DNA of 64,000 nt, taken from the NCBI GenBank assembly GCA_011391125.1, contig JAABRE010000007.1:30660-94659 (forward strand). The letters run 5' to 3'. This stretch comes from Synechococcales cyanobacterium S06. Its GTDB lineage: Bacteria > Cyanobacteriota > Cyanobacteriia > Cyanobacteriales > JAABRE01. Shown here piece by piece: positions 6,056-30,931 of this stretch; within the stretch, counting starts at the first letter, position 1; the number at the start of each line of letters is the position of its first letter. The notes beneath the pieces are model-generated. The model was given only the letters and a program-made list of their open reading frames with translations. It was not told the origin of the DNA and searched no databases. Made by a program: the position numbers and the translations under genes.

Positions 6056-6286
6056 ATGAAACAACTAACGAGAATTACGTTTAATCCTGAAATTATGGGA
6101 GGCAAACCTTGTATCCGAGGTTTGCGTGTTACTGTGGGTACGATAGTTGGTTTAATGGCTTCCGGACAAACTCCTGAAACCATTTTAGAAGCTTATCCCT
6201 ATTTAGAATTAGCTGATATTTATGAGGCCTTAGCTTATGCTGCTTGGCGTTCTGAAGAAATTGAAGTCAATTTAGCTTCTGTGTAA
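6056..6286 (+). CDS. DUF433 domain protein (antitoxin-like), no partner gene
   Basis: 76 aa. IMGGKPCIRGLRVTVGTIVGLMASGQTPETILEAYPYLELADIYEALAYAA is the DUF433 signature. No DUF5615/PIN-like gene follows. Confidence 0.8.
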   Translation: MKQLTRITFNPEIMGGKPCIRGLRVTVGTIVGLMASGQTPETILEAYPYLELADIYEALAYAAWRSEEIEVNLASV

Positions 6287-6291
6287 ACTTT

Positions 6292-6756
6292 TTAATCTGG
6301 TTTTTTCGCCGTAATCACCTCCACAGGACGCAGGACATTTTCCCCAACCTTGAAACCTTGGCGAATAATTTTAGTAATGGTCTTATCTTCCACGTCCTCT
6401 CGAATTTCCCGATCTACCACTTGACAGAGACTAAAATCAGGTAAAGAATCTTCAAATTTAATTAAATTTACTTCCCTTTTTTCGAGAATATCTAAGAGTT
6501 TTTTCTGAATTGTACCAAAATATTTAGGTAATCTTTTGATAAATTGCGGTGGTAATTCTGGGTTTTCTTCCATGTAATTTATGAAGTATTCCACAGAATC
6601 AAATAATTCTAATAACTCTAATAATAACTGTTCTTTGCTTGCTTGAGCGCCTTCTTTTTCTTCCCTTACTGATTGTTGTAAGGCTACTTTTTCCTTTAAT
6701 AAATTACTTAATTCCTGTTGTATTTGTTCCCGTTGTTCGCTTTTTAAAAGATACAT
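6292..6756 (-). CDS. Minimal GrpE-like nucleotide exchange factor
   Basis: 154 aa with an N-terminal coiled coil. FDSVEY... (compare GrpE lDnleRa), LLDILEKREVNLIKF...FSLCQVVD (compare FDP..HeAv) and the terminal IIRQGFKVGENVLRPVEVITAKK (compare GY.l.drvlRpA.V.V.k) fit GrpE. Confidence 0.7.
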   Translation of the reverse strand: MYLLKSEQREQIQQELSNLLKEKVALQQSVREEKEGAQASKEQLLLELLELFDSVEYFINYMEENPELPPQFIKRLPKYFGTIQKKLLDILEKREVNLIKFEDSLPDFSLCQVVDREIREDVEDKTITKIIRQGFKVGENVLRPVEVITAKKPD

Positions 6757-6778: not shown

Positions 6779-6903
6779 ATCTCACTCCAAGACGCAAAGG
6801 GGTTGGTCGGCTTTGCTGTCTATATTTGGGTTTTTTATCTCACGCAAAGGCGCAAAGACGCAAAGGGGTTGGTCGGCTTTGCTGTCTATATTTGGGTTTT
6901 TTT
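6779..6903. repeat. Tandem duplication of a CTCAC-GCAAAG element (58 and 67 bp units)
   Basis: Units at 6779-6836 and 6837-6903 share gacgcaaaggggttggtcggctttgctgtctatatttgggtttttt. The second unit carries an extra gcaaaggcgcaaa. Related copies lie at 20837-20937, 21836-21864 and 38415-38458. Confidence 0.85.
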
Positions 6904-6913
6904 AGGTTAAATA

Positions 6914-7270
6914 TTAGTCAGAAAATAACATTTTTCCTAGTCTTTTGTCAATTTCACCGCCATCTTTTGCCATTTCTATTATTGTTTCGAGGTTGTCAAA
7001 TTCGGGTAAGATTTCTAGTTCAGGTTCGGGTTTTTCTAATTCTGAAAAGTCCTCTTTTTTGAATCTTTTTATCGGTGGAAGTATCGGTTTTAAGTAATCG
7101 GCGATTATCCTTTCTTCGGTGTTCATTAATGCTTTGCGCGCCCCGGCAATGACATCGGGTTTATATTTTTTCCGTTTCATTGCTTGCATAAATGCTTTAG
7201 TTATTTCGGCATTTGATGCAGCTTGGGATACTTCTAAAACGTCGTAAGGGTTGATATATTCTTGGGTCAT
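6914..7270 (-). CDS. J-like domain protein with KPD instead of HPD
   Basis: 118 aa. [33 protein letters not shown] aligns with the J-domain consensus [47 protein letters not shown] aligns with helix III/IV. The catalytic His is Lys. Confidence 0.6.
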   Translation of the reverse strand: [118 protein letters not shown]

Positions 7271-7348: not shown

Positions 7349-9451
7349 TTATTCACCTCCCAAAAATAGTAGCGCCGCAATTCCTATTACTTTTCCTATT
7401 GTTTCTAATTTTTGTGCCAAATCTATCTCTTCAATTTTTTTGATTAATTCATTGAGAATGGGATTATTGTAATCTATTTCTTTTAGTTTTCTTAATTCAT
7501 TTAATCCTGTATCAAGACTAATTTCATCATCTGCTAATTTACTTCCAATTTCCCTAGTTTTATATTCCACAAAATAACTTTTAGCTGCTTGAGTTGCTAA
7601 TAATTCATGCCAAAATTTAGCAAATTCTAAATGTTCATTAAATTCATCTATTTCTTGACGTTGTTTCTGACAAAGTTTCTCTATATTTTCTCTCCATTCA
7701 TTATTATTTGTAATCCCTCTTTTTGCCTGTTTTAAAGCAGTTTTTCCTTTGCGCCAATTATACTGTTGTAAGTGATAACTTCCCTCATGGTAGCAGACTA
7801 AATCATAAGCAAAGTTTTCTGTTTCTGATACAGGATTTTTAGAGGGTTTTATTTGTATCGCGCGTTTAATATCATTCTCCAAACAAGCTGCTACAGCTTT
7901 CCCCCAATCTGTATATAATGCTCCCCAAATTTTAGTGGGAAATATTATCACAGGTAATTTATGTGAATATGTTTCATAACATCCGGGAGTAATAAATATT
8001 TCCTTAATTCTGATACCACAATTTGGCATATCTACTATTAGGTTTAAAGCGAATTTTTCTTGGCGATAAATATCTCGTAATTCAAAATATTTATCTAAAT
8101 TTATATCTTTATAGTTGTCAATTAATCTTTCGATTAAGTCTTTAATTTTACTCGCAATTTCTACTAAGTTAATTATTTTAATTCCTAACCAACGAATATT
8201 TTTTAACGCTGGATTTATTTCTATATTTGCTAAAGCTGTTGACCATGTTACTATTAATTTAGCTAGTTGATCGCTATCTATTTGTGCATAATAATAAAGG
8301 GCGATCACTAGATTGTGTAATGAAACAATATCTAGTCTTTCTAACCAGTTGTTTTCTGTTTGATTGACTATTTTTTCCCATTCTTTATTTGTCCAAATTT
8401 GATTATCTAAACGGGGTTTAATATGGGATTCTAAATTCTCGGTGACAAGAGGATCATTACCAAATCTTTCGATAAATCTTAAGCTAGTTTTTTCTGCATT
8501 TTCCAACTTATCTTGTGTGACAAAATCCTGAATGGTTTTCTTTACTAATAAACGCTGACGTTCAGCCATAATTTTTAGTGTTTCTTTTTGTTTTTTCAAA
8601 GTATAATTAGTTATATTTTTCCATTCTTTTTGTGCTTTTTGTAAGTCTCCTTGTTTAGCATAAATTAAACCACGATAATATTTAGCAGTTTCTGTGTTGA
8701 TATTTTGCAGATATTTAATAGCTTGATTAAAGTCATCTTGGTTAAAGTATAAAATAGCTAAACGTTGACGAGATTCTGTCAATTCTGGTAAACTTTCTAA
8801 GGCTTTTTCATAGTTAAAAATAGCTTCTTTTATTTGTCTATTTTTATCATAATTTAAGGCTTGCTTAAAATATTGTTTACCTACTAATATTCTATTTAAG
8901 TTATCAAGATAATCTTCACCGTCAGGATGTTTAAACATATCATAAACAAGTTTAAATTGAGTTATTGCTTCTGAAATATTACCATTTTGAGCTGTTTTTT
9001 TACTATTCTCAAAACCAAGATAATATTCTTTACTTAATTCTATTTTTTCTGAACAATCTTTAATTAGATGCTCAATTTCTTCTGTAACAAAAAATCTTTT
9101 AGCGGATTGAAAATTATATAAAGCGCCTTCAAATTGCCAACTTTTTTTTAATTGTTTACCCGTTTGAAATAGTTTTTGGAATTGCTCTCTTTTATTGATT
9201 TCATTTTTACAAGATTGAATGAATGTATTATATTCCGGTATTTTTACCAGTTTATACGCTTTTTCATATAACCTTAATGCTTCCTTTAAAGGATGAATAT
9301 GAATATTTGAGGAAGAATTTAAGGCCTCATTCTCTATTTTTTTTGCTTCTTTTACTATTTGTTTACTTTCTTTTAATTGCTTTTGATATTCTAATTTACC
9401 TAGAATGAAAAGCAAAGCAAGTACACCCAAAATAAAGATAATAATTAACAT
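7349..9451 (-). CDS. Membrane-anchored TPR-like repeat protein (700 aa)
   Basis: It has an N-terminal TM helix (LIIIFILGVLALLFILG). TPR-like A/Y/L periodicity appears in about residues 40-290 (e.g. AIFNYEKALESLPE, QAIKYLQNI, AKYYRGLIYAKQGDLQKAQKEW). About 350 aa cannot be assigned. The C-terminus is short and hydrophobic (VIGIAALLFLGG). Confidence 0.7.
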   Translation of the reverse strand: MLIIIFILGVLALLFILGKLEYQKQLKESKQIVKEAKKIENEALNSSSNIHIHPLKEALRLYEKAYKLVKIPEYNTFIQSCKNEINKREQFQKLFQTGKQLKKSWQFEGALYNFQSAKRFFVTEEIEHLIKDCSEKIELSKEYYLGFENSKKTAQNGNISEAITQFKLVYDMFKHPDGEDYLDNLNRILVGKQYFKQALNYDKNRQIKEAIFNYEKALESLPELTESRQRLAILYFNQDDFNQAIKYLQNINTETAKYYRGLIYAKQGDLQKAQKEWKNITNYTLKKQKETLKIMAERQRLLVKKTIQDFVTQDKLENAEKTSLRFIERFGNDPLVTENLESHIKPRLDNQIWTNKEWEKIVNQTENNWLERLDIVSLHNLVIALYYYAQIDSDQLAKLIVTWSTALANIEINPALKNIRWLGIKIINLVEIASKIKDLIERLIDNYKDINLDKYFELRDIYRQEKFALNLIVDMPNCGIRIKEIFITPGCYETYSHKLPVIIFPTKIWGALYTDWGKAVAACLENDIKRAIQIKPSKNPVSETENFAYDLVCYHEGSYHLQQYNWRKGKTALKQAKRGITNNNEWRENIEKLCQKQRQEIDEFNEHLEFAKFWHELLATQAAKSYFVEYKTREIGSKLADDEISLDTGLNELRKLKEIDYNNPILNELIKKIEEIDLAQKLETIGKVIGIAALLFLGGE

Positions 9452-9474: not shown

Positions 9475-10014
9475 TTATTTAACTGAACAATTATTTTCTA
9501 CATTCGGAATTAATAATTTATCCCCAATTTCTATCTCATTTTCTCTTCCTTTTAACTGGGGATTATTCTCAAGAATTAAGTTAATTAAATTACTATCACC
9601 ATAAAATTTATCGGCAATTAAAAATAAAGAATCTCCTTTTTGAACCGTATAATTAAAAGCACTTAAGCATGGTTTTTGTGTGGTTTTTGCTGTGGGTTTT
9701 TCCGATGGTTTTTCTGGTTCATTTTTAACTATTACTGGTTTTTCGACAGGAGGTTTTACAGCTTCTTCTTTAGCAAAAAATACTGTACTAACACCAAAAA
9801 TTAAGCTCAAAGCAATAACTATTATTACTATAATTTCTGTCATATTTAAGTTGATTTTTGTCGGTAATTTTGCTTCTTGTTCTGGCAATTCCGCTAACAT
9901 TCTTACTAAAGAAATATCCGTTTCACAATTAGGGCAGATATTCCCTTCAATCTCAGGGCGATCGCACACGGGACAAGTGATTTTCGTATTCATTGATATT
10001 TTCTCCATTGACAA
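9475..10014 (-). CDS. Zinc-ribbon / single-TM / LysM domain protein
   Basis: Zinc ribbon CPVCDRPEIEGNICPNCETD, TM helix IIVIIVIALSLIFGVSTVFFA, a Pro/Lys/Glu linker, then the LysM motif YTVQKGDSLFLIADKFYGDSNLINLILENNP...IEIGDKLLIP. The track start is TTG. ATG at 10008 or 9993 (the latter with GGAG upstream) are likelier starts. Confidence 0.75.
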   Translation of the reverse strand: MSMEKISMNTKITCPVCDRPEIEGNICPNCETDISLVRMLAELPEQEAKLPTKINLNMTEIIVIIVIALSLIFGVSTVFFAKEEAVKPPVEKPVIVKNEPEKPSEKPTAKTTQKPCLSAFNYTVQKGDSLFLIADKFYGDSNLINLILENNPQLKGRENEIEIGDKLLIPNVENNCSVK

Positions 10015-10056: not shown

Positions 10057-12267
10057 TTAACGAGTTAATCCTGTATAAATGTTACCAGTAGGTAATTTTT
10101 GCTCTAAATATGGCTCAATTTCTGGTAATAATTCCTGTAAAATATAAACACATTGATCACTATCACCATATTTTAAACTATTAAGTAAATTGGCAAATTT
10201 ATTCGTCATTAAATTAGCATGGGTAGGATTAATTTGATTCGCTTTTGCAATACCTCGCCGAGAAAGTAAGATGATGGTGACCATTTCAGGTAAATTCTCA
10301 TATTCTTGTTGACAATCTTCAGCCAATTTTTGCAGTGCTGAAATATTATTTGAAGCAAGAGCCTTTTCTAATTCCTCAATTAATTTGCGTAACCTTCTTT
10401 GTTGCGATTCCTCAATTACGGTGTCACAATATTCAAGGGCAAATTCAAACTCATTGATAAAATATTTAGCGATTTCATGGTCATCATTAGCAAAAATTTC
10501 CAATTCTTGAAGTTTTTGTTGAGCTACTCTGAGTCGATCTTCTTTGATTCTACCATCTCGATCTCGTATTTGATTAGCAGCCCTAATCACTTCCCCCGCA
10601 ATTTTATAACCCCGTTTAGCTCCTGTTTCTGTCAACTCTCCTTCCTCGTTTAGTTCAGCAATTCTCGCTTCAACTTTGCGGGAAATTTCTTCATCAGCGT
10701 TACCACGGGAAAAAGAAGCACTAACTTTAACGGAAGGATCATTTTTCAAAGCAGCTGTTATCTGCAAAGAACCATTTTTTTCATCTAATTCCGCAGTTAC
10801 CAAAACTTCTGTACCCTTGGGATAAGCTTGATCTAAGGCTAACCACATATCCCCTAAACGTTCATCATTTTTGCGCAAATCCAGACTTTCACTGACTTGA
10901 TCAGGACTGAAAAATTTAAAATGAATCAACTCCTGTCCATCTGCTTCGGTTTTAAAGGTATGTGACTTGATCACGGGCAAAATGTCACCCTGATTAATCA
11001 AAGGAAATCTGGGATTATCCACCAATTCGAGGAAATAATCCCGGGAAACTGTGCCGACTTTTTCTGTCAACCCAGCAGCCACGATCGCCGCTCCTTCGGC
11101 CACTGCATACATTGGCCGAGGATGCACTACGACTTTATCGCCAAATGCTTTCCTGACTTTTTGCTGCACTAAAGGAATTTGCGATGAACCGCCCACCAAT
11201 AAAACCACATCGATCATATCTTCAGGATAATCTGAATATTTAATCGCATCTTGACAAATGGCAATACTCCGTTCCACCAAAGGTAAAATCAACTTTTCAA
11301 AATCTTGACGGGTAATTTCGACATCAAGATTGATCGCCATACCTAGTTCATCTAAAAGCGGTGTGGAAGGCAGTATTTTTGCAGTTTTAGCCTTACTAAG
11401 CTGGATTTTTGCTTTTTCAGCCTCCATTTTTAAATCCGCTTTAAACCGCACTTTCTGATAGTAAGGCATACTTCCAATTAATTCGTCAATATTATCTAAA
11501 TCCTCGCTTTGGGCGACTTTTTGCTTGACAAACTCAATAATCAAGTCGTCAATGTCATCACCCCCTAACCACAAATCCCCCGCTTTACTTGACTCAATAA
11601 ACTGGTTTCCTGATGCTGTAATCAAAGATGAATCAAACGTCCCTCCCCCGAAGTCATAGACTAAAATCGTTTTGACATCATCAGAATTGGGACTATAACC
11701 GTAGGAAATAGCCGCCGCAGTGGGTTCGGGTAAAAGTTCAGGTTGACCTAAACCTGCTCTTTGCGCTGCCATTTGGGTTGCGTAGCGTTGTTTATCATTG
11801 AAATATGCGGGAATAGTCACCACAGCTTGGGTAATTTTTTGCTGTTGACCCCTTTGCTGTTGGTAATTTTGAGCATTCTGCACCACTTTTTTGATAATTT
11901 CGGCGGAAATGTCCTCTGGTTGATATTCCTTGCCATCTAACCAGACGGAAATTGCGTTTTCTGTACCTTGACTGGGTTTACTAATCTTATAACCGAAACG
12001 GCCTAACTGTTTTTGTACCACTTCATCGCCAAAACCCCTACCCATTAAGCGTTTAATGGACATAATTACGTTTTCTGCATCTTGTTTTAACTGATTGTAG
12101 GCATTTTCCCCGACAATAATTTGATTATTCTGTAAAGATACCACGGAGCGAGTTAACTTCCTGTCTGGTGGGGGATTGTCGGGAGCTGTCACGACTTCTG
12201 TATCCGAAAACTTAAACGCAGCCACCGAGTTGGTTGTACCTAGATCAATCCCTACAATATTACCCAT
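10057..12267 (-). CDS. Atypical Hsp70-family ATPase (736 aa) with a non-canonical C-terminal region
   Basis: Actin-fold/Hsp70 motifs are present: [55 protein letters not shown] beta-rich substrate-domain-like segment follows. The last ~200 aa are helical, unlike the DnaK lid, and there is no EEVD-like tail. Confidence 0.9.
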   Translation of the reverse strand: MGNIVGIDLGTTNSVAAFKFSDTEVVTAPDNPPPDRKLTRSVVSLQNNQIIVGENAYNQLKQDAENVIMSIKRLMGRGFGDEVVQKQLGRFGYKISKPSQGTENAISVWLDGKEYQPEDISAEIIKKVVQNAQNYQQQRGQQQKITQAVVTIPAYFNDKQRYATQMAAQRAGLGQPELLPEPTAAAISYGYSPNSDDVKTILVYDFGGGTFDSSLITASGNQFIESSKAGDLWLGGDDIDDLIIEFVKQKVAQSEDLDNIDELIGSMPYYQKVRFKADLKMEAEKAKIQLSKAKTAKILPSTPLLDELGMAINLDVEITRQDFEKLILPLVERSIAICQDAIKYSDYPEDMIDVVLLVGGSSQIPLVQQKVRKAFGDKVVVHPRPMYAVAEGAAIVAAGLTEKVGTVSRDYFLELVDNPRFPLINQGDILPVIKSHTFKTEADGQELIHFKFFSPDQVSESLDLRKNDERLGDMWLALDQAYPKGTEVLVTAELDEKNGSLQITAALKNDPSVKVSASFSRGNADEEISRKVEARIAELNEEGELTETGAKRGYKIAGEVIRAANQIRDRDGRIKEDRLRVAQQKLQELEIFANDDHEIAKYFINEFEFALEYCDTVIEESQQRRLRKLIEELEKALASNNISALQKLAEDCQQEYENLPEMVTIILLSRRGIAKANQINPTHANLMTNKFANLLNSLKYGDSDQCVYILQELLPEIEPYLEQKLPTGNIYTGLTR

Positions 12268-12525
12268 TTGGTCTCCTTAAATTGGTTCTTTTTACTTATC
12301 TTGTCGAGTTTCAAAATTTATGCAGTTTTTCAAAAAAATTTTTCAAAATTAATTATAGATCAATTTTGTTTTTTTTTCAAAATAAGGAGAGCGCTTTAGC
12401 GCAACAACGAGCCTTGTTAATACATATTTATAAACATATTTCTGTATAAATTGTTACAAAATACGAAAATTATTAAAATTGTGATTTTTGGAAAGGAATT
12501 ATTATAATCAAAATAGACCTATTAT

Positions 12526-13107
12526 TTGTTAGTTAAAATTATGGTTGCTCAAATAACGAAAACAACTTATTCCATTGCGGAATATTTGGAATTAGAAGAA
12601 AAAGCCGAGACAAGAAATGAGTTTATTAATGGGGAGATAATTGCTATGGCTGGAGGAACAACTAATCACAATTTGGTGACGGGTAATATGTATTTAGCTT
12701 TAAGATTAGGTCTAAAAGGTAAAAAAACCCCAGTTTACATTGAAAATGTGCGAGTATTTATCGCTGAATATAACATTTTTACCTATCCTGATGTGATGGT
12801 AATGGCGGGAGAACCAATCTATTATACGGAGAGTAAAACCACAGTAATTAATCCCGTTGTTATCATTGAAGTTTTATCCGATTCGACTAAAGATTATGAT
12901 TTAGGTCGAAAATTTGGTTATTATCGCTCCTTAGAAAGTTTACAGGAATATGTGTTAATTGAACCTGAAGACAGGTTAATTATGATTTATCGACGAGGTA
13001 ATTCTAAACAGTGGTCATTGGATATTCTTGACAGGGAAACTGATATTTTGCAGTTAACGACAATAAGTTTAGATATTCCCTTGTCTGAGATTTATGAAGG
13101 GATTTAA
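12526..13107 (+). CDS. Uma2 family (DUF820) endonuclease
   Basis: EYLELEEKAETRNEFINGEIIAMAGGTTNHNLVTGN...YPDVMV...PVVIIEVLSDST..YD...K...Y is the Uma2 PD-(D/E)xK pattern. The track start is TTG; ATG at 12541 is more likely. Confidence 0.85.
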   Translation: MLVKIMVAQITKTTYSIAEYLELEEKAETRNEFINGEIIAMAGGTTNHNLVTGNMYLALRLGLKGKKTPVYIENVRVFIAEYNIFTYPDVMVMAGEPIYYTESKTTVINPVVIIEVLSDSTKDYDLGRKFGYYRSLESLQEYVLIEPEDRLIMIYRRGNSKQWSLDILDRETDILQLTTISLDIPLSEIYEGI

Positions 13108-22268: not shown

Positions 22269-25200
22269 TTGGTTGAAATAAAAATTATGGTAGCCACAGT
22301 AAATATAAGTAACGGATACCTTGTTGAAGGTACTAACATAGGTACAGATGGTAAGTCTTTCTTGAATTTCACTATTTCCCTCAGTGAACCATTAACCAGT
22401 CCTCAAAGTATTAAGTATGCAACATTTAATGGTACAGCCACGGGAGGAAGCAGCAATACTAGTGATTATCTGAGTACAACTACTGGTAGTATCACCTTTG
22501 CTGCCGGAGAAATCGTTAAAACCATCAGCATTCAGGTTTTTAATGACAACATTACCGAATTAGACGAAAGCTTTTATCTGAATGTCTTTATTCCTAAGGA
22601 TAGTTTTCTATATACGTTATTAAAATTCGAAGATCCTACCATTCCAGGTACTGACATTTTATCCGGTACAGCCACCGGAATTATTAGCGATACAATATAC
22701 AAGGATGCTAGTTATACCCTAGAGCCTACGGTTGAAAACCTAACTTTAACGGGTACAGGTAATTTTTCCGGTACAGGTAACGACTTAAATAATATTATCA
22801 CCGGTAACAGTGGAGCTAACAATTTAGTAGGAGGAGTAGGAAATGACACCCTAGAAGGAAAAGGAGGAGACGACACTCTCACCGGTGGATCGGGCAATGA
22901 TGTCTATATTATCAGTAATCAAGCCGGTATCGTAGAAGCCGAGAACTCGATTATTAATGGTAATGACACGGTTTTATCCTCCGTCAGTTATACTTTACCA
23001 GCTAACGTTGAAAATTTAACCCTAACAGGAAGCGGACTGATCGATGGTACAGGTAATGCCTTAAATAATAATCTTGTTGGTAATGGCCGCAATAATATTT
23101 TAACGGGGGATGAAGGTAGTGATACCCTTGACGGTGGAGCTGGTAATGATACCCTGAGGGGGGGTTTAGGTGATGACTACTATGTTATCGCTCAATTAGG
23201 TGACAAAATAGAAGGAGAAACTTCTGTCGGTGGTATTGACACCGTTGTCTCCTCATTGAATTACAGATTAGGAGCTAATTTAGAGAACCTGGTATTGACC
23301 AGAAATGCCCTTCAAGGTACAGGTAATACCTTAAATAATAAAATTGTTGGGAACAATTTAGGCAACACTCTTAACGGTGGTAACGGTAGTGATACCCTTG
23401 ACGGAGGTGCTGGGGATGATACCCTAATTGGTGGCAATGCAGATGATTTCTATCTAGTTGACAGTGCCAATGATGTGATCACAGAAACCGCCACAGGTGG
23501 CAATTTAGATGTAGTTCAAGCTTCTGTTAACTATACATTAGGCGCTAATTTAGAAAAATTAATCCTGGCCCCTGGTACCGATAATCTCGAAGGTTTTGGC
23601 AACACTTTAAAAAATATCTTAGTTGGAAATGACGGCAATAACTTCCTAGATGGCGGAACTGGTGGTGACACCATGGAAGGGGGTAAGGGAAATGATACTT
23701 ATTTGATCAATGAAGTCAGCGATATAGTCACTGAAAAAACGGGTGAAGGTATAGATACCGTAGAAACAGAGATTAACAACTATACCCTACCCTTAAATGT
23801 TGACAACCTGAATCTGGCCGAGAAAGACACCATTTTAGTTGGTACAGGTAACACCCTCCCTAATGTTCTCATTGGCAATAGTTACAACAATACCCTGAAC
23901 GGTAATACCGGTAATGACACCCTAGATGGTGGTGTCGGAAATGATACCTTAAATGGTGGTACAGGTAATGATATCTATTACGTTGATAGTGTAGGCGATG
24001 TCATCACGGGAGAAGGTACGGACGTTAGCCCAGATTTAGTTATTTCCTCTGTTACTTACACTCTACCCTTAAATGTTGAACACTTGAACCTGGTAGGTTC
24101 TCTTAATTTATCAGGAACAGGTAACGACAGCAACAACAACATTATTGGCAATACAGGCAATAATACCCTAAATGGTGGCATTGGTAACGATAGTTTAACT
24201 GGTGGAGCTGGTAATGATAGTTTAATTGGTGGCACTGGAGATGATACCCTAGACGGTGGTTTAGGTGTCGATAGCTTAACTGGAGGCACTGGAAATGATC
24301 TATATCGCATCGATAGAATCAAGGATACCATTGTCGAAGAAACATTAGATGGAGGAATTGACACAGTAGAAGCTTCCTTTTCCTATATCCTTAAAGATCA
24401 CTTGGAAAATCTTACCCTTACCGGTACGGGTAATTTTAGTGGTACAGGAAACAGTGTTGCCAATATTATCAAAGGAAACACAGGTGCTAATGCCCTCAAT
24501 GGTCTAGATGGCAATGATAGCATTGACGGTGGTACAGGAAACGATATTATCCTTGGTGGTACAGGAGATGATACCCTCATCGGTGGTACAGGAAATGATA
24601 CCCTCATCGGTAATACAGGAAATGATAGTTATACCGTTGACACTTCCTTTGACGTAATTATCGAGCAAGCCAGTGAAGGTACAGATATCGTAACATTTAT
24701 TGGTACTACGGGTACTTATATCCTGAGTGACAATCTGGAAAACCTGACTCTGTTTGGTACAACTACCACAGCATTTGCTATTAACGGCACAGGTAACAGC
24801 TTAAACAACACCATCACTGGTAATATTGCGTCCAATATCATTGATGGTGGCACAGGTGCAGATATCTTAACTGGTGATAAAGGTAACGACATTTATTTGG
24901 TTGATAATGCTGGGGATAAGGTCTCTGAAACTTCCACTATTACCACAGAAATTGATACAGTCTTCTCCTCCGTAACTTATACCCTTACTAATAACGTCGA
25001 AAACCTTAACCTGACTGGTACAGCTAATCTCAACGGTACAGGTAATGACCTCAGGAATAACATCATTGGTAACGAAGGTAACAACACACTTAATGGTGGG
25101 GGTGGTAACGATATCCTTGACGGTGGTTTAGGAGTCGATAGTCTCATCGGTGGTTTAGGCAATGATACCTACATCGTTGATAATAGTGGGGACAAAGTAA

Positions 25201-25733
25201 CTGAAACTCTCAATCAAGGTACAGATACCGTTGTCAGTTTTATTAACTACACCTTAACTACAGACGTAGAAAACCTGACTCTTGGTGGTGTAGATAACAT
25301 CAATGGAACAGGCAATAATCAAAATAACTCCATTTACGGTAACAGTGGTGATAACATCCTTTACGGTGGTGGCGGAAATGATCTGCTTTACGGTGGAGCC
25401 GGTGCTGACAAATTTAACTATAACACTACAAAGCTATACGCCAGTTCGGCTATCGGCCTAGACGAAATTAATGATTTTAAGCCGGGTGAAGATAAAATCG
25501 TCCTTGGTAAAATTACCTTCGGTTTCCCACTTGCTCAGACTTCATTACTTGATAGTGATTTTGCTGTGGTTGATTTAGATGAGGCTGCTGAAGTTAGTCC
25601 AGCGAGGATTATTTATAGTCGCGAAACCGGTAACTTATTCTATAATCCTAATGGTGCTACTGAGGGAGATAACATTTTCCTACAATTACCCACGACAAAT
25701 AGCCTCTCTGCTAGTGATTTCTTATTAGAGTAG
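22269..25733 (+). CDS. Calx-beta domain + RTX-type calcium-binding repeat protein (about 1150 aa)
   Basis: The N-terminus has a Calx-beta pattern (ATFNGTATGGSSNTSDYLSTTTGSITFAAGEIVKTISIQVFNDNITELDESFYLNV). Ten ~95-aa modules follow, each with YTLxxNVENLxLTGxxNxxGTGN plus GGxGNDxLxGGxGxDxL nonapeptides. The likely true start is ATG at 22287 (the track start is TTG). Confidence 0.85.
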   Translation: MVEIKIMVATVNISNGYLVEGTNIGTDGKSFLNFTISLSEPLTSPQSIKYATFNGTATGGSSNTSDYLSTTTGSITFAAGEIVKTISIQVFNDNITELDESFYLNVFIPKDSFLYTLLKFEDPTIPGTDILSGTATGIISDTIYKDASYTLEPTVENLTLTGTGNFSGTGNDLNNIITGNSGANNLVGGVGNDTLEGKGGDDTLTGGSGNDVYIISNQAGIVEAENSIINGNDTVLSSVSYTLPANVENLTLTGSGLIDGTGNALNNNLVGNGRNNILTGDEGSDTLDGGAGNDTLRGGLGDDYYVIAQLGDKIEGETSVGGIDTVVSSLNYRLGANLENLVLTRNALQGTGNTLNNKIVGNNLGNTLNGGNGSDTLDGGAGDDTLIGGNADDFYLVDSANDVITETATGGNLDVVQASVNYTLGANLEKLILAPGTDNLEGFGNTLKNILVGNDGNNFLDGGTGGDTMEGGKGNDTYLINEVSDIVTEKTGEGIDTVETEINNYTLPLNVDNLNLAEKDTILVGTGNTLPNVLIGNSYNNTLNGNTGNDTLDGGVGNDTLNGGTGNDIYYVDSVGDVITGEGTDVSPDLVISSVTYTLPLNVEHLNLVGSLNLSGTGNDSNNNIIGNTGNNTLNGGIGNDSLTGGAGNDSLIGGTGDDTLDGGLGVDSLTGGTGNDLYRIDRIKDTIVEETLDGGIDTVEASFSYILKDHLENLTLTGTGNFSGTGNSVANIIKGNTGANALNGLDGNDSIDGGTGNDIILGGTGDDTLIGGTGNDTLIGNTGNDSYTVDTSFDVIIEQASEGTDIVTFIGTTGTYILSDNLENLTLFGTTTTAFAINGTGNSLNNTITGNIASNIIDGGTGADILTGDKGNDIYLVDNAGDKVSETSTITTEIDTVFSSVTYTLTNNVENLNLTGTANLNGTGNDLRNNIIGNEGNNTLNGGGGNDILDGGLGVDSLIGGLGNDTYIVDNSGDKVTETLNQGTDTVVSFINYTLTTDVENLTLGGVDNINGTGNNQNNSIYGNSGDNILYGGGGNDLLYGGAGADKFNYNTTKLYASSAIGLDEINDFKPGEDKIVLGKITFGFPLAQTSLLDSDFAVVDLDEAAEVSPARIIYSRETGNLFYNPNGATEGDNIFLQLPTTNSLSASDFLLE

Positions 25734-26549: not shown

Positions 26550-28796
26550 ATGGGAAGAGTCGTAGGTATTGATTTGGGAACAACTAATTCTGTAGTAGCT
26601 GTCATGGAAGGTTCAAAGCCAATTGTGATCGCTAATTCAGAAGGAATGCGGACGACTCCTTCTGTGGTAGGTTTTAATAAGGATGGGGAATTAGTCGTGG
26701 GCAGTTTAGCCCGTCGTCAGGGTGTACTAAATCCTCAAAATACCTATTCTGGTGTCAAACGTTTTATGGGTCGCAAATACGCGGAACTTGAGCCTAGTTC
26801 TAAGCGCGTGCCTTACACTATTCGTAAGGATGATCTTGGTAATATTAAAATTCGCTGTCCTCGTCTCAAAAAGGAGTATGCTCCCGAAGAAATTTCCGCT
26901 ATGATTTTAAGAAAATTGGCGGAGGAAGCGGAACGATATTTGGGGGAAAAAGTCACGGGTGCGGTCATTACTGTCCCTGCTTATTTTAATGATTCCCAAC
27001 GCCAAGCGACTAAAGATGCTGGAAAAATCGCTGGCTTGGAAGTTCTACGCATTATTAATGAACCTACTGCTGCTTCTTTAGCCTACGGGTTGGAACAACA
27101 AAAAACTAAGACTATTCTCGTTTTTGATTTGGGTGGTGGTACGTTCGATGTGTCCATTTTGGACGTGGGAGACGGCATTTTTGAGGTCAAAGCTACCAGT
27201 GGAGATACCCAATTAGGTGGTAATGATTTTGACCAGAAAATTGTGAATTGGTTGGCGGAACAATTTTTGGAAACCGAAAAAGTTGACCTTAGACGCGATC
27301 GCCAAGCTCTCCAACGTCTCACGGAGGCGGCTGAAAAAGCCAAGATTGAACTATCCGGTGTATCTGTGACGGAGATTAATTTACCGTTTATTACCGCAAC
27401 GGAAGATGGTCCCAAACACCTCGAAACCCGTTTAGACAGGGCAACTTTTGATAACCTTTGTGGTGACTTAGTTTCCCGTTTAAGACGACCTTTAAAACGC
27501 GCTTTATCTGACGCAGGAATCAGCCCTGTACAAATCGACGAAGTTGTGCTAGTTGGCGGCTCTACCCGTATCCCTTTAGTTCAAGGGTTGGTGCGTAGTT
27601 TCATTGATCGCGAACCGTCCCAAAATGTCAACCCCGATGAAGTGGTGGCCGTTGGTGCTGCTATTCAAGCTGGCATTTTGGGCGGCCAAGTCAAGGATAT
27701 TCTGCTACTTGACGTGACTCCTTTGTCCCTTGGCTTAGAAACCATTGGCGGGGTGATGAAAAAACTTATCCCCCGTAATACTACCATTCCCGTGCGGCGA
27801 TCGGATATTTTTTCAACTAGCGAAAATAACCAAACTTTGGTGGAAGTCCACGTTTTGCAAGGGGAAAGGGAAATGGCCTCGGGAAATAAGTCTCTCGGCC
27901 GTTTTAAATTAACGGGAATTCCTCCTGCTCCTCGCGGTGTACCCCAAGTTCAAGTGTCCTTTGATATTGATGCCAATGGCATTTTGCAGGTTTCCGCCAT
28001 GGATAAAACCACTGGCCGTCAACAAAGTATTACTATTCAAGGGGCTTCTACTTTAGCCGACAGCGAAATCAATCGCATGATTGAAGATGCGTCCAAGTTT
28101 GCCCAGGAAGACAGAGAACGTCGGGAAAGGGTAGAAAAACGCAACCGAGCTAGGGCATTGACTGACCAAGCACAACGTCGAATTAAGGAAGTTACCCTCG
28201 ATTTTGGTAGTCAATTTGCGAGTTATTATCGTCGTCGAATTGAGGCCTTAAGTGCGGAAATTAATGATAGTTTAAAGGAAAATGACGATCGCCGTTTAGA
28301 TCGCGCTCAAGCTGATTTACAAGATGCACTTTATGAGTTAAATCGTGAGGTGAGATTACAATATCGAGACGACGAAGATGACGACTTTTTCGGTTCAATT
28401 AAAAGGACAATTACGGGAGAAAAAGATCGCGAAGATGACCTAGATTCTTATTATAATACTCGCACTTCTAACCCAAATTATAACGAACGTCGAGATAATT
28501 ATCGGGATGATTATCGGGATGATTATAATTATTCTCCGCGTCAAAAAGATGATAATTACTATCAGCAAAAAACTAATTATTCTTCCCGTCAAAAAGATGA
28601 TAATTATTATGAACCAAGAGATAATAGACCTTCTCGCCAAAAAGATGATAATTATTATGAACCAAGAGATAATAGACGTTCTACTCCTCGAAATAATGAC
28701 CCTTATCCTGACCCGAATCAACGTTATTCTGGTACAGGAAAACAGCGAATTCCGCGCCAAAATGATTGGGATGAAGATGACGACGAATGGTTTTAA
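26550..28796 (+). CDS. dnaK: Molecular chaperone DnaK, DnaK3-type with a long repetitive C-terminal extension
   Basis: 748 aa, canonical throughout: [75 protein letters not shown] ~150-aa Asp/Tyr/Arg-rich tail follows. The gene downstream is dnaJ. Confidence 0.95.
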
Positions 28797-28976: not shown

Positions 28977-29939
28977 ATGCAAAGTTTAAGAAATTATTAT
29001 GAAGTTTTAGAAGTTCAGTCAAATGCCACTGGTGATGAAATTAAGAGGGCTTTTCGTAAATTAGCGAGGCGTTATCATCCAGACGTTAACCCCGGTGATT
29101 TAACCGCCGAGGAAAAATTTAAGAACCTTAATGAAGCTTATGAGGTGCTTTCTGATGATGAAAAGCGATCGCAATATGATCTTTTTCTCCGTCAACAAAA
29201 AACCGCAAAAAGACCAAGTTTTAACAAAAATAATACCACTAAAGCTGCGGAATATAGCGATTTTAATCAGTTTGTCGATCAGATGCGCAATCGTCGACCT
29301 CCAGCGAACACCACAGCAACAGCCGAAAATCCTCGTATTCGGGTTAATTCCACTGAAGGATATAAACCTGGTACGGTCAAAACCCCAAAAGTGGTTAATC
29401 CGAGGGCCGGTGCTGTTAGGCCGAGGGATATTGAGGCTAGGTTAACTTTACCACTGGAAAAGGCTTATTTAGGCGGAAAAGAGCGGATTCGCCTCGAAGA
29501 TGGTAGATCTTTGGAGGTGGAAATGCCTCCGGGGATGCTCGATGGACAGAAAATTCGCCTCAAAGGTCAAGGCATTGCTGGTGGTGACTTATACCTCAAG
29601 ATAACCGTTGCACCCCATGCACTATTTGAGTTACAGGGTGCTGATATTTACTGCCAAGTTCCGGTTACTCCCTCGGAAGCGGTATTAGGAGGTGCGGTGG
29701 AAGTGCCAACTATTGACGGTTTAGTTAAAATGACCGTCCCTAGTGGTGTGAGAAGTGGTCAACGGCTGCGGTTGGCGAATAAAGGTTATCCCCGAGGAAA
29801 AGATAATTCTCGGGGTGATCAATTGGTGGAAATAGTGATAGTAACTCCCAAGGAAATTAGCGAAGAAGAAAGAGATTTGTATCGCCAAATTCGGGAATTA
29901 GAAACTTTTAAACCTCGCAAAAATTTAGTTGAAAATTAG
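28977..29939 (+). CDS. dnaJ: DnaJ-family co-chaperone lacking the zinc-finger region (type II, DnaJ3-like)
   Basis: 320 aa. The J domain is intact, with HPD ([36 protein letters not shown]...[23 protein letters not shown]). There are no CxxCxGxG repeats. The DnaJ C-terminal beta domains are present ([28 protein letters not shown]...). Confidence 0.9.
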
Positions 29940-30876: not shown

Positions 30877-30931
30877 GTAGGGTGGGCATTGCCCACCAAA
30901 TGATTCTTGTGGTGGGCAATGCCCACCCTAC
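30877..30931. repeat. Inverted pair of GTGGGCA(A/T)TGCCCAC palindromes framed by GTAGG/CCTAC
   Basis: gtagggtgggcattgcccacc-N13-ggtgggcaatgcccaccctac. The TAG stop of the type IIG gene (complement of 30928-30930) lies inside the right arm. Split relatives occur at 39922-39990, 54086-54104 and 57304-57371. Confidence 0.85.

What the first reader, a model, noticed from the sequence alone, without database searches (positions are those of the whole stretch)
6914..7270. J-domain-like protein with the catalytic His replaced (KPD instead of HPD)
The first ~60 aa align well to the J-domain consensus across helix I and helix II ([30 protein letters not shown]). The invariant HPD loop reads KPD, and helix III is shortened. 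In canonical systems HPD is required to stimulate Hsp70 ATPase. A conserved HPD-less J-like protein next to an atypical Hsp70 therefore suggests either altered coupling or a regulatory/adaptor role. The acidic C-terminal half ([17 protein letters not shown]) could be a client or partner-binding tail.
Basis: partly seen in the sequence, partly recalled or inferred. Interest (0 to 1): 0.55.

Follow-up and report, generated by a model that had tools for sequence, protein, structure and literature searches.

The report
HPD-less J-like partner of specialised Hsp70
This small gene encodes a J-domain-like helper protein that, in all its relatives, lacks the His-Pro-Asp loop normally needed to switch on Hsp70 chaperones, and it sits in a conserved five-gene operon with its own unusual Hsp70, a short GrpE and a cell-wall-binding membrane protein.

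Summary
ORF 6914-7270 (minus strand, 118 aa) has a J-domain fold with KPD where HPD should be, and the helix II-III hairpin is 13 residues shorter.

- **The motif.** K is unique to this strain. The loss of HPD is family-wide: no His at that position in 78 genomic and 38 database orthologues, consensus Y-P-V/P-D. Only 2 of 150 distant representatives have a His there.
- **The operon.** The gene is the fourth of five: Hsp70 (736 aa), zinc-ribbon/TM/LysM protein, large TPR protein, J-like, short GrpE-like. All five occur in the same order in 67 of 80 cyanobacterial loci. Variants occur in Prevotella-type and high-GC contigs.
- **The partner Hsp70.** It keeps its ATPase catalytic residues. It has lost the elements a canonical HPD acts on: R167 to E (61/62), N170 to P, Q378 to V, and the VLLLD linker replaced. 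A canonical DnaK/DnaJ pair 17 kb away in the same window keeps all of them.
- **Best reading (inferred).** This is the dedicated J-type cochaperone or adaptor of a specialised, peptidoglycan-tethered Hsp70 machine that couples without HPD.

No biochemistry exists, and I found no description of the cassette in the literature I could search. I class it as a new variant of a known kind (type IV / J-like protein). Interest is moderately high.

The parts
6914..7270 (-). J-like protein, 118 aa (the finding)
   Evidence: ORF. Pfam DnaJ E=3.5e-5, below the gathering cut-off. HHalign against J domains gives 96.5% probability. AF2 four-helix J fold. Foldseek hits are J domains. It is the best-conserved protein of the cassette, with median 62% identity.
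7091..7252 (-). J-like domain, residues 7-60 (helices I-IV)
   Evidence: pLDDT above 90, with helices at 8-12, 20-33, 38-49 and 51-60. The alignment to E. coli DnaJ runs through helix IV with a 13-residue gap after the HPD position. K/R32 and K/R34 at the end of helix II are conserved in about 133 of 145 remote representatives.
7154..7162 (-). K37-P38-D39, the HPD-equivalent tripeptide
   Evidence: The reverse complement reads AAA CCC GAT. Across 78 genomic sequences the first position is P 63, S 13, K 1, N 1 and never H. The third position is D in 63 of 78.
6917..7090 (-). Tail, residues 61-118: conserved P62...F70 segment, acidic stretch, F91-D92-x-L94 motif, C-terminal helix
   Evidence: P62, F70 and L94 are invariant and D92 is present in at least 90% of 38 orthologues. 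The FD-x-L motif recurs in remote ~90-aa members. pLDDT is 64-77, with a helix at 94-116.
6292..6756 (-). Short GrpE-like nucleotide exchange factor, 154 aa; last gene of the operon
   Evidence: Pfam GrpE E=5e-17 covering profile 25-165 of 165. NCBIfam GrpE equivalogs score far below cut-off, 31 against 137 bits. It follows the J-like gene in 78 of 80 loci.
7349..9451 (-). Large TPR / helical-repeat protein, 700 aa; third gene
   Evidence: Pfam TPR_2, TPR_1, TPR_19 and ANAPC3 match at residues 194-273. Orthologues are 34-54% identical. The N-terminal hydrophobic segment in the window copy is absent from 51 of 64 orthologues. Its 'HPD' at residues 175-177 is not conserved.
9475..10014 (-). Zinc-ribbon / single TM / LysM protein, 179 aa; second gene
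   Evidence: Pfam LysM E=1e-7 and a weak Zn_ribbon_3 hit. The CPVC...CPNC motif is conserved. One TM segment is predicted in 63 of 63 orthologues.
10057..12267 (-). Atypical Hsp70, 736 aa; first gene
   Evidence: Pfam HSP70 scores 326 bits. DnaK and HscA equivalogs score far below cut-off. The catalytic residues D8, T11, K70, E171, D194, T199 and D201 are kept. R167 is E in 61 of 62, N170 is P in 56 of 62, and the VLLLD linker is replaced by KV[TG]TVSRDY. AF2 pLDDT is 85.9, the model is docked and ATP-like, and the helical C-terminal region is long. The C-terminal peptide ...I[AV]TGLTR is conserved.
12352..12380 (-). Promoter-like site upstream of the Hsp70 gene (possible operon promoter)
   Evidence: TTGAAA-17-TATAAT matches 11 of 12 positions. 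The number of such sites in the region is not above shuffled controls, so this is only a candidate.
6791..6902 (.). Two exact 46-bp copies (66-bp period) in the spacer between the J-like and GrpE-like genes
   Evidence: Two exact matches against 0 expected. Each copy folds into a hairpin on the mRNA strand; the spacer has z=-2.7. Role unknown.

Best explanation
The 118-aa protein is the dedicated J-type cochaperone or adaptor of the atypical Hsp70 encoded three genes upstream. It belongs to a self-contained five-gene module: Hsp70, Zn-ribbon/TM/LysM protein, large TPR/helical protein, J-like, short GrpE-like.

**Shown:**
- It has a J-domain fold and J-domain ancestry.
- The whole family lacks HPD and has a truncated helix II-III hairpin.
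- It is under strong purifying selection.
- It is always encoded with this Hsp70 subfamily and a GrpE-like gene.
- The partner Hsp70 keeps its ATPase catalytic residues but has replaced the residues a canonical HPD contacts or perturbs: R167, Q378 and the LLLD linker.

**Inferred:**
- The J-like domain still docks on the Hsp70 through the conserved basic end of helix II (K/R32, K/R34, Y36).
- It cannot trigger hydrolysis by the canonical route, in which HPD disrupts the R167-D393-D481 network. Coupling in this machine is therefore rewired, or the J-like protein mainly targets and tethers the Hsp70.
- Its conserved tail (P62...F70, F91-D92-x-L94) links it to the TPR/helical scaffold.
- The LysM membrane protein anchors the machine to the peptidoglycan.
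- The GrpE-like protein resets the Hsp70 by nucleotide exchange.

The client and the physiological role of the machine are unknown. They could be envelope or septum remodelling, or a conflict function.
For: **J ancestry and fold:**

**HPD absent throughout the family:**
- None of 78 genomic and 38 database orthologues has a His at that position.
- Only 2 of 150 remote 50%-identity representatives do. The single protein containing a true HPD is an unrelated tandem array of canonical J domains.

**Operon conservation:**
- All five genes occur in the same order and on the same strand in 67 of 80 cyanobacterial loci. Most of the remainder are cut by contig ends.
- No other gene is conserved in the flanks.
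- The same cassette surrounds remote ~90-aa J-like genes in contigs of 39-66% G+C, including a Prevotella salivae-type locus.

**Physical linkage by fusion:**
- The J-like domain is fused to a 600-aa helical protein in L089.
- It is fused to TPR repeats in Nostocales and to a TM segment plus SPOR domains in other cyanobacteria.

**Hsp70 side:**
- Catalytic residues are invariant, while R167 is E, N170 is P, Q378 is V and the linker is changed.
- The canonical DnaK paralogue in the same window keeps R167, N170, Q378 and ILLLD. Its DnaJ scores 97 bits and has YHPD.

**Published contact map:**
- H33 contacts the L391 backbone, P34 contacts P419, and D35 contacts R167 and Q378 (PMC8215388).
- The Asp of HPD acts on the R167-D393-D481 network, and changing R167 raises basal ATPase and blunts J stimulation (PMC7289447).

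**Selection:** the J-like protein is the most conserved of the five, with median 62% identity.
Against: - No direct evidence shows that the J-like protein binds this Hsp70 or affects its ATPase.
- The Pfam score is below the gathering cut-off.
- The residue pair at the R167 and D35 positions is same-sign in every lineage examined: E/D in cyanobacteria and R/K, R/R, K/R elsewhere. There is no simple compensating salt bridge, and the docking geometry is unknown.
- Two Hsp70 differences I first noted, D481N and the 208-211 loop deletion, also occur in the canonical paralogue and are not diagnostic.
- Non-cyanobacterial Hsp70s of the cassette keep R or K at the R167 position, so loss of that Arg is not a universal correlate of HPD loss.
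- The tail-to-scaffold link rests on gene fusions and motif conservation only.
Confidence: 0.6

Rival explanations
1. It is a Pam16-like regulatory pseudo-J. The protein does not act on the Hsp70 itself. It pairs with and modulates an HPD-bearing J-domain protein encoded elsewhere, which is the real ATPase activator.
For: Pam16 is the best-known HPD-less J-like protein. It works in a membrane-associated Hsp70 motor that also uses a GrpE homologue (PMC13254874). Cyanobacteria encode many DnaJ proteins (PMC9239167), and one lies in this window.
Against: No canonical J domain was found in any ORF of the 80 cassette loci, and no sixth gene is conserved. The cassette Hsp70 lacks R167, Q378 and the LLLD linker, the elements an HPD needs, so a canonical J would have little to act on.
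Confidence: 0.1
2. The five-gene module is a conflict or defence system, for example against phage. The Hsp70 ATPase acts as a switch, the large variable helical protein as a sensor, and the J-like protein as an adaptor. On this reading the module is not a housekeeping envelope chaperone. This rival concerns the role of the system and is compatible with the J-like protein being the Hsp70's partner.
For: - In Prevotella-type contigs the cassette lies beside a transposase, MobC, two integrases and DUF3408/DUF1896.
- L082 is surrounded by IS elements.
- L089 is next to a HEPN_AbiV gene and a kinase/PP2C pair.
- The large helical protein varies from 689 to 2004 aa and is the least conserved component.
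- Flanks are not conserved.
- Other Hsp70+GrpE+DnaJ modules have been predicted in conflict systems (PMC7159879).
Against: - None of the five proteins hits PADLOC.
- tblastn finds no match in the plasmid or phage collections.
- In cyanobacteria, identities track taxonomy, and the cassette occurs in about 235 species-representative stretches, which looks like vertical inheritance.
- The LysM and SPOR links point to the cell wall or septum.
- No effector or toxin domain was recognised.
Confidence: 0.2
3. It is a decaying, non-functional J-domain remnant, or a chance resemblance.
For: The Pfam score is below the gathering cut-off and only half the profile aligns. HPD mutations normally abolish function (PMC13254874).
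Against: It is the most conserved protein of the cassette. There are 20 invariant positions across 38 orthologues. The family has 302 representatives across phyla. The fold is confidently predicted. Synteny with an Hsp70 and a GrpE-like gene is constant.
Confidence: 0.03
4. It is a strain-specific His-to-Lys mutation of an otherwise normal HPD J protein.
For: K at this position is unique to the window sequence.
Against: No orthologue has His at this position. The ancestral state in the family is P or S.
Confidence: 0.01

Closest known systems
Type IV / 'pseudo' J-domain proteins (J-like proteins such as Pam16/Tim16, DnaJB13, plant and cyanobacterial ARC6/Ftn2-type J-like domains)
   Same: A recognisable J-domain fold in which HPD is non-conservatively replaced. 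The protein is embedded in a specific machine rather than in general folding.
   Different: - It is bacterial and encoded in an operon with its own Hsp70 and GrpE.
- No HPD-bearing partner J lies in the module, unlike Pam16 with Pam18.
- The hairpin loop is truncated by 13 residues, not merely point-mutated.
- The partner Hsp70 has itself lost the HPD-contact residues.
DnaK-DnaJ-GrpE system
   Same: The same trio of protein types: an Hsp70 with intact catalytic residues, a J-fold cochaperone with a basic helix II, and a GrpE-fold exchange factor.
   Different: - There is no HPD.
- The Hsp70 has E at R167, P at N170, V at Q378 and a polar linker (KVTTV for VLLLD).
- It also has a longer helical C-terminal region and a conserved C-terminal ...TGLTR peptide.
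- The GrpE is short at 154 aa.
- Two extra obligatory partners are present: the LysM membrane protein and the TPR scaffold.
- All NCBIfam equivalog scores are far below cut-off.
HscC with DjlB/DjlC (E. coli)
   Same: A divergent, specialised Hsp70 with dedicated, co-encoded, membrane-associated J partners that carry a non-canonical motif (HPE). A function at the membrane is presumed (PMC8215388).
   Different: HscC is 550-580 aa and lacks a GrpE partner and the GrpE signature. DjlB and DjlC keep His and Pro. The present Hsp70 is 736 aa and has a dedicated GrpE-like gene. Here the membrane link is a separate LysM protein.
Mitochondrial PAM import motor (mtHsp70, Tim44, Pam18, Pam16, Mge1)
   Same: A membrane-tethered Hsp70 with a scaffold, a J-like subunit lacking HPD and a GrpE homologue. 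It serves as an analogy for how the module might work.
   Different: There is no translocon and no Pam18 equivalent. The tether binds peptidoglycan. The two are not homologous as systems.
GAP1-N2 GTPase-centric conflict systems with Hsp70, GrpE and DnaJ-FNIII (Kaur et al. 2020, PMC7159879)
   Same: A non-housekeeping Hsp70 and GrpE with a J-type protein in a conserved neighbourhood. Kinase/PP2C associations are sometimes seen, as in L089.
   Different: The present cassette has no GTPase, no FNIII protein and no effector-associated domains. The published systems occur mainly in actinobacteria and firmicutes. LysM and zinc-ribbon components are not described there.

Membership tests
J-domain protein (Pfam PF00226 / canonical JDP) | Four-helix J fold with a helix II-III hairpin | tested here: met
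   The AF2 model has helices at 8-12, 20-33, 38-49 and 51-60 with pLDDT above 90. Foldseek top hits are J domains, with TM by target up to 0.68.
J-domain protein (Pfam PF00226 / canonical JDP) | Sequence match reaching the curated Pfam threshold | tested here: not met
   The score is 24.3 bits against a gathering cut-off of 27.8, and only profile positions 1-37 of 63 align. HHalign nonetheless gives 96.5% probability. The canonical DnaJ in the same window scores 97 bits.
J-domain protein (Pfam PF00226 / canonical JDP) | His-Pro-Asp in the helix II-III loop | tested here: not met
   The window has KPD. No His occurs at this position in 78 genomic and 38 database orthologues, and only 2 of 150 remote representatives have one. 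The loop is shortened by 13 residues.
J-domain protein (Pfam PF00226 / canonical JDP) | Stimulates the ATPase of a partner Hsp70 | not testable with these tools
   This needs purified proteins.
Type IV / J-like (pseudo-JDP) proteins | A clearly recognisable J domain with HPD non-conservatively replaced (definition in PMC13254874) | tested here: met
Pam16/Tim16-type J-like regulators | Works as a heterodimer with an HPD-bearing J protein of the same machine | tested here: not met
   No canonical J-domain pattern occurs in any ORF of the 80 cassette loci. Only five genes are conserved. A partner encoded elsewhere cannot be excluded.
DnaK-type Hsp70 (for the partner protein) | ATPase catalytic residues D8, T11, K70, E171, D194, T199 and D201 | tested here: met
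   These residues are invariant in about 60-62 of 62 orthologues.
DnaK-type Hsp70 (for the partner protein) | J-coupling elements: R167, Q378 and the conserved hydrophobic linker VLLLD | tested here: not met
   R167 is E in 61 of 62. Q378 is V in the window copy and in most orthologues sampled in the smaller alignments. The linker is KV[TG]TVSRDY. NCBIfam DnaK scores 315 bits against a cut-off of 648.
HscC / DjlB-DjlC system | Hsp70 of 550-580 aa without a GrpE partner; J partner with HPE | tested here: not met
   The Hsp70 is 736 aa and a GrpE-like gene is in the operon. The motif has no His. HscC features are taken from PMC8215388.
GrpE (for the last gene) | GrpE fold and profile | tested here: met
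   Pfam GrpE gives E=5e-17 and 62.5 bits against a cut-off of 25.8. NCBIfam GrpE equivalogs score far below cut-off, so this is a divergent subfamily.
Known anti-phage defence systems (PADLOC-DB v2) | Match to a defence-system protein model | tested here: not met
   None of the five proteins hits any model at E of 0.1 or below.
GTPase-centric Hsp70/GrpE conflict systems (Kaur et al. 2020) | A GAP1-N2-type GTPase and an FNIII-repeat protein in the neighbourhood | tested here: not met
   Only the five genes are conserved. None has GTPase or FNIII Pfam hits.

The most novel reading that the evidence does not exclude
The cassette defines a fourth, widespread type of prokaryotic Hsp70 machine beside DnaK, HscA and HscC. 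It is tethered to peptidoglycan through LysM or SPOR membrane partners and scaffolded by a large helical protein. Its J-type cochaperone has been selected to work without HPD on an Hsp70 whose R167 and linker network has been rewired. If so, it is a natural HPD-independent mode of J-Hsp70 coupling. It may serve envelope or septum remodelling in cyanobacteria and travel as mobile-element cargo, perhaps with a conflict role, in Bacteroidota.
Probability: 0.35. Interest if true: 0.8.

Novelty: new variant of a known kind. Interest (0 to 1): 0.62.

Why it matters
HPD is present in about 99% of J domains (PMC13580251). Even H-to-Q or D-to-N substitutions abolish Hsp70 stimulation. A 2026 review says it 'remains enigmatic' whether HPD-less J proteins are accidents of evolution or are positively selected (PMC13254874).

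Here an HPD-less J-like protein is strongly conserved across phyla. It is always encoded with its own Hsp70 and GrpE. Its Hsp70 has changed exactly the residues that HPD acts on. That gives a compact, purifiable bacterial trio in which the question can be tested directly: does a J fold without HPD still trigger or gate ATP hydrolysis when the Hsp70 has co-evolved?

It also puts a concrete gene set and membrane context on one branch of the bacterial 'DnaK derivatives' that the same literature calls unexplored dark matter. That context is peptidoglycan binding through LysM or SPOR domains.

Tried and rejected
1. **A hidden true J domain in the TPR protein.** The window copy has 'FKHPDG' at residues 173-178, but orthologues read F-P-R-x-D-G, with His in 1 of 64. 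Rejected as chance.
2. **A canonical J protein elsewhere in the cassette loci.** The regex scan of all ORFs in 80 loci found none. The same scan did find the window's real dnaJ at 28977.
3. **A charge-swap hypothesis.** I tested whether a basic hairpin tip or D39 pairs with Hsp70 E177. The residues at the R167 and D35 positions are same-sign in all lineages. Not supported, and recorded as unexplained.
4. **D481N and the deleted acidic loop (208-211) as diagnostic Hsp70 changes.** Both also occur in the canonical paralogue. Dropped.
5. **The TPR protein as a two-TM membrane protein.** The N-terminal hydrophobic segment is absent from 51 of 64 orthologues under my threshold. It is not a general feature.
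6. **Defence-system libraries and mobile collections.** No PADLOC hits and no plasmid or phage matches.
7. **Literature.** Ten full-text searches found no description of the cassette.
   - The DnaK1/DnaJ3/GrpE system of Nostoc is a different locus.
   - Whether Synechocystis slr0086 ('similar to DnaK') is an orthologue could not be checked. That idea comes only from my memory of the annotation.
   - Barriot et al. 2020 and Xu et al. 2020 are not held in the library.
9. **Complex prediction.** No multimer prediction tool was available, so the J-like:Hsp70 interface could not be modelled.
Full report
**1. What is in the sequence**

The ORF at 6914-7270 lies on the minus strand and encodes 118 aa. 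K37-P38-D39 is encoded at 7154-7162.

Four tests show the J-domain resemblance is not chance:
- Pfam DnaJ matches residues 7-45 to profile positions 1-37 of 63. E is 3.5e-5 and the score is 24.3 bits, below the 27.8-bit gathering cut-off.
- A profile of 38 orthologues searched against all PDB sequences returns almost only J domains. The best E is 2.5e-4.
- HHalign of that profile against five canonical J domains gives 96.5% probability and E=9.5e-10. It puts Y-K-P-D on Y-H-P-D.
- An AlphaFold2 model has pLDDT above 90 for residues 10-60 and shows helices at 8-12, 20-33, 38-49 and 51-60. Its Foldseek hits are nearly all J domains, including DnaJ in the DnaK-J complex 5NRO.

A MAFFT alignment with E. 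coli DnaJ extends the homology through helix IV. KRxxYD is kept as ERxxAD[YF]. The alignment shows a 13-residue deletion immediately after the HPD position.

In the model the helix II-III connection is a four-residue turn (K34-K37), and P38-D39 caps helix III. The canonical protruding HPD loop is therefore missing. This is more than a point mutation.

**2. Is KPD conserved?**

It is not, but the absence of HPD is.
- In 78 sequences from cyanobacterial genomes, the His position is P (63), S (13), K (1, the window) or N (1). The Pro position is V, P, I, A or L. The Asp position is D in 63.
- The 38 database orthologues behave the same way.
- A full HMMER scan of 1.84 billion representatives found 302 family members at E of 1e-3 or below. 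Of the 150 best, only two have a His at that position. The one protein with a true HPD is an unrelated tandem array of canonical J domains.

What is conserved across the whole family:
- N-P-Y at the start of helix I, and E22-I23, A26, A30 and M31;
- the basic end of helix II (K/R32 and K/R34 in about 133 of 145) and Y36;
- I41, A42, A44, K46 and L48 in helix III;
- R54 and D58-[FY]59 in helix IV.

The J-like protein is the best-conserved product of its operon. Its median identity to the window copy is 62%. The Hsp70 is at 58%, the GrpE-like protein at 50%, and the other two at 36-37%. That pattern does not fit a decaying relic.

**3. Context**

The gene is fourth in a minus-strand operon:

| Order | Coordinates | Product |
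|---|---|---|
| 1 | 10057-12267 | Hsp70, 736 aa |
| 2 | 9475-10014 | zinc-ribbon / one TM / LysM protein, 179 aa |
| 3 | 7349-9451 | TPR-containing protein, 700 aa |
| 4 | 6914-7270 | J-like protein, 118 aa |
| 5 | 6292-6756 | short GrpE homologue, 154 aa (Pfam GrpE E=5e-17) |

A scan of one genome per species found 235 stretches encoding a relative of the J-like protein. By record title, 79 of the best 80 are cyanobacterial and one is labelled an uncultured bacterium.
- All five genes occur in the same order and on the same strand in 67 of the 80. Most exceptions are contig ends.
- Clustering every ORF in these loci shows no sixth conserved gene.
- The LysM protein has exactly one predicted TM segment in 63 of 63 orthologues. 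The Hsp70, the GrpE-like protein and nearly all J-like proteins have none.

**4. The family reaches beyond cyanobacteria**

The remote ~90-aa members have the consensus M-NPY-IL...EI-KA...A-R/K-x-K-Y-S/T-P-K/R-E-IA-AQK-L..P..R...DF. They sit in the same cassette:
- L083-L085 (39% G+C) and L090-L092. The J-like protein of L090-L092 is named from Prevotella salivae by NCBI. Both sets carry Hsp70, LysM protein, a 1489- or 2004-aa protein, J-like and GrpE-like genes.
- L086 (66% G+C) and L088 (44%) are variants of the same arrangement.
- In L089 (60% G+C) the J-like domain is fused to a 600-aa helical protein. A GrpE and an Hsp70 lie upstream, together with a Ser/Thr kinase and a PP2C phosphatase.

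In L083, L088, L089 and L090 a zinc ribbon is inserted at the NBD-SBD junction of the Hsp70. In cyanobacteria the zinc ribbon heads the LysM protein.

Cyanobacterial variants of the J-like protein carry extra C-terminal modules. Nostocales have TPR repeats (about 204 aa in total). Other lineages have a TM segment followed by two SPOR-like domains.

The recurring themes are a cytoplasmic Hsp70 core, a helical or TPR scaffold, and a transmembrane link to peptidoglycan.

**5. The partner Hsp70 has lost what HPD acts on**

Published structures and simulations give the contact map:
- DnaJ H33 contacts the backbone of linker residue L391.
- P34 contacts P419.
- D35 contacts R167 and Q378.
- The Asp works by perturbing the R167-D393-D481 network.
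- Changing R167 raises basal ATPase and blunts J stimulation (PMC8215388; PMC7289447).

In 62 cyanobacterial orthologues of the cassette Hsp70:
- the catalytic residues D8, T11, K70, E171, D194, T199 and D201 are essentially invariant;
- R167 is E in 61;
- N170 is P in 56;
- VLLLD is replaced by KV[TG]TVSRDY.

In the window copy and in most orthologues sampled in the smaller alignments, Q378 is V.

As an internal control, the same window carries a canonical DnaK-type gene (26550-28796) followed by a canonical DnaJ (28977-29939; J domain 97 bits, YHPD). That DnaK keeps R167, N170, Q378 and ILLLD. It also shares D481N and the shortened 208-211 loop, so I do not count those two as diagnostic.

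The AF2 model of the cassette Hsp70 has pLDDT 85.9. It is a complete Hsp70 in a docked, ATP-like arrangement, with 3.6-3.8 A rmsd to 7KZU and 5O4P over about 545 columns. The helical C-terminal region is long, and the loop on the J-binding face of lobe IIA (residues 220-230) is of low confidence. The protein ends in a conserved peptide, LP[ST][GN]xI[AV]TGL[TS][RK].

**6. How it most likely works**

*Shown:* J ancestry and fold; family-wide loss of HPD with hairpin truncation; strong constraint; obligatory co-occurrence with this Hsp70 subfamily and a GrpE-like gene; an Hsp70 with an intact active site but an altered J-coupling network.

*Inferred:*
- The protein is the Hsp70's own J-type partner and docks through the conserved basic end of helix II.
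- The canonical trigger cannot operate. Either hydrolysis is gated by a rewired interface, or the J-like protein is chiefly a targeting and tethering subunit.
- A dedicated exchange factor argues that this Hsp70 still cycles with tight nucleotide binding, unlike HscA and HscC, which do without GrpE.
- The tail motif and the natural fusions suggest the J-like protein bridges the Hsp70 to the TPR/helical scaffold.
- The LysM (or SPOR) protein fixes the assembly to the cell wall.

I put about 0.6 on this picture. I cannot choose between 'rewired activator' and 'pure adaptor'.

**7. Rivals**

- **Pam16-like regulator of a separate HPD J protein.** This is possible but disfavoured. No such gene is in the module, and the Hsp70 lacks the elements an HPD needs.
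- **Conflict or defence role for the whole module.** This remains open. Mobile-element neighbours occur in Prevotella-type loci, L089 has a HEPN neighbour, and the large helical component is highly variable. Against it, PADLOC gives no hit, there is no plasmid or phage copy, inheritance in cyanobacteria looks vertical, and no effector domain is recognisable. This rival would not change the J-like protein's role as Hsp70 partner.
- **Relic, chance resemblance or strain-specific mutation.** These are refuted by the conservation data.

**8. Comparison with known systems and novelty**

By the definition in the 2026 review, this is a type IV / J-like protein. It fails the canonical JDP tests on both the HPD motif and the Pfam threshold.

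It is not Pam16-like, because it has no partner J. Its Hsp70 is none of the following:
- DnaK: equivalog scores are half the cut-off;
- HscA;
- HscC: wrong length, and it has a GrpE partner.

The Hsp70+GrpE+DnaJ-FNIII modules of GTPase-centric conflict systems (PMC7159879) are a different neighbourhood.

Recent reviews acknowledge many uncharacterised bacterial 'DnaK derivatives' (PMC13580251). I found no description of this cassette or its J-like subunit in ten full-text searches. The library lacks most subscription papers, including Barriot et al. 2020.

I therefore class it as a new variant of a known kind, with a 0.35 chance that it represents a distinct, HPD-independent Hsp70 machine.

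**9. Unexplained**

- The residues at the R167 position of the Hsp70 and the D35 position of the J-like protein are same-sign in every lineage: E/D, R/K, R/R and K/R. The contact geometry is unknown.
- The client and physiological role are unknown.
- The taxonomy of the high-G+C contigs is undetermined.

Noticed in passing
window 26550-28796 (+) and 28977-29939 (+): A canonical DnaK-type Hsp70 (748 aa, Pfam 809 bits) has a long repetitive Tyr/Asp/Arg-rich C-terminal tail (...RQKDDNYY... repeats). It is followed by a canonical DnaJ (320 aa; J domain 97 bits with YHPD; DnaJ_C). The pair resembles the cyanobacterial dnaK3-dnaJ arrangement. I used it as an internal control.
   Followed up: partly
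window 6791-6836 and 6857-6902: Two exact 46-bp copies, 66 bp apart, lie in the spacer between the J-like and GrpE-like genes (0 expected by chance). Each forms a hairpin on the mRNA strand, and the spacer folds with z=-2.7. There is no U-tract, so it is not an obvious terminator. It occurs nowhere else in the window.
   Followed up: partly
window 10057-10100 (C-terminus of the Hsp70, minus strand): The cassette Hsp70 ends in a conserved C-terminal peptide, LP[ST][GN]xI[AV]TGL[TS][RK]-COOH. This recalls the EEVD-type tails that bind TPR cochaperones. It could be the docking site for the TPR protein, or for the TPR extension of Nostocales J-like proteins.
   Followed up: no
L083, L088, L089, L090 (Hsp70 genes) versus window 9475-10014: A CPxC...CPxC zinc ribbon is inserted exactly at the NBD-SBD junction of the Hsp70 in non-cyanobacterial cassettes. 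In cyanobacteria it is the N-terminal cytoplasmic domain of the LysM membrane protein. L083 and L090 have both.
   Followed up: partly
L090-L092 (Prevotella salivae-type contigs), L082, L089: The non-cyanobacterial cassettes lie beside mobile-element or conflict genes. L090 and L092 have a transposase and MobC, and L090 also has DUF3408/DUF1896 and two tyrosine integrases. L082 has IS66 and DDE transposases. L089 has HEPN_AbiV and a Ser/Thr kinase plus PP2C pair.
   Followed up: partly
P0163, P0166, P0171, P0175 (cyanobacterial J-like homologues of 440-510 aa); L030, L066: Some orthologues extend the J-like protein with a TM segment and two SPOR-like (septal peptidoglycan-binding) repeats. This is a second, independent link of the system to the cell wall.
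   Followed up: partly
P0168 (395 aa); L022 and L026: Odd architectures appear. In P0168 the J-like domain is fused to an Hsp70 SBD-like segment plus TPR repeats. In L022 and L026 a truncated Hsp70 is directly followed by the J-like gene, without the LysM and TPR genes. These may be rearrangements, pseudogenes or assembly errors.
   Followed up: no
window 30928-34719 (-): A 1263-aa fusion protein carries DUF7149, DUF7814, Eco57I/MmeI-type methyltransferase and TaqI_C specificity domains. It is probably a type IIG/IIL restriction-modification enzyme.
   Followed up: no
window 42200-48037 (-), 22269-25733 (+), 12526-13107 (+), 6056-6286 (+): Other neighbours are a 1945-aa multi-PAS hybrid histidine kinase with a receiver domain, an 1154-aa RTX/Calx-beta protein, a Uma2-family putative endonuclease immediately upstream of the operon, and a DUF433 protein immediately downstream. 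None is conserved next to the cassette in other genomes.
   Followed up: no
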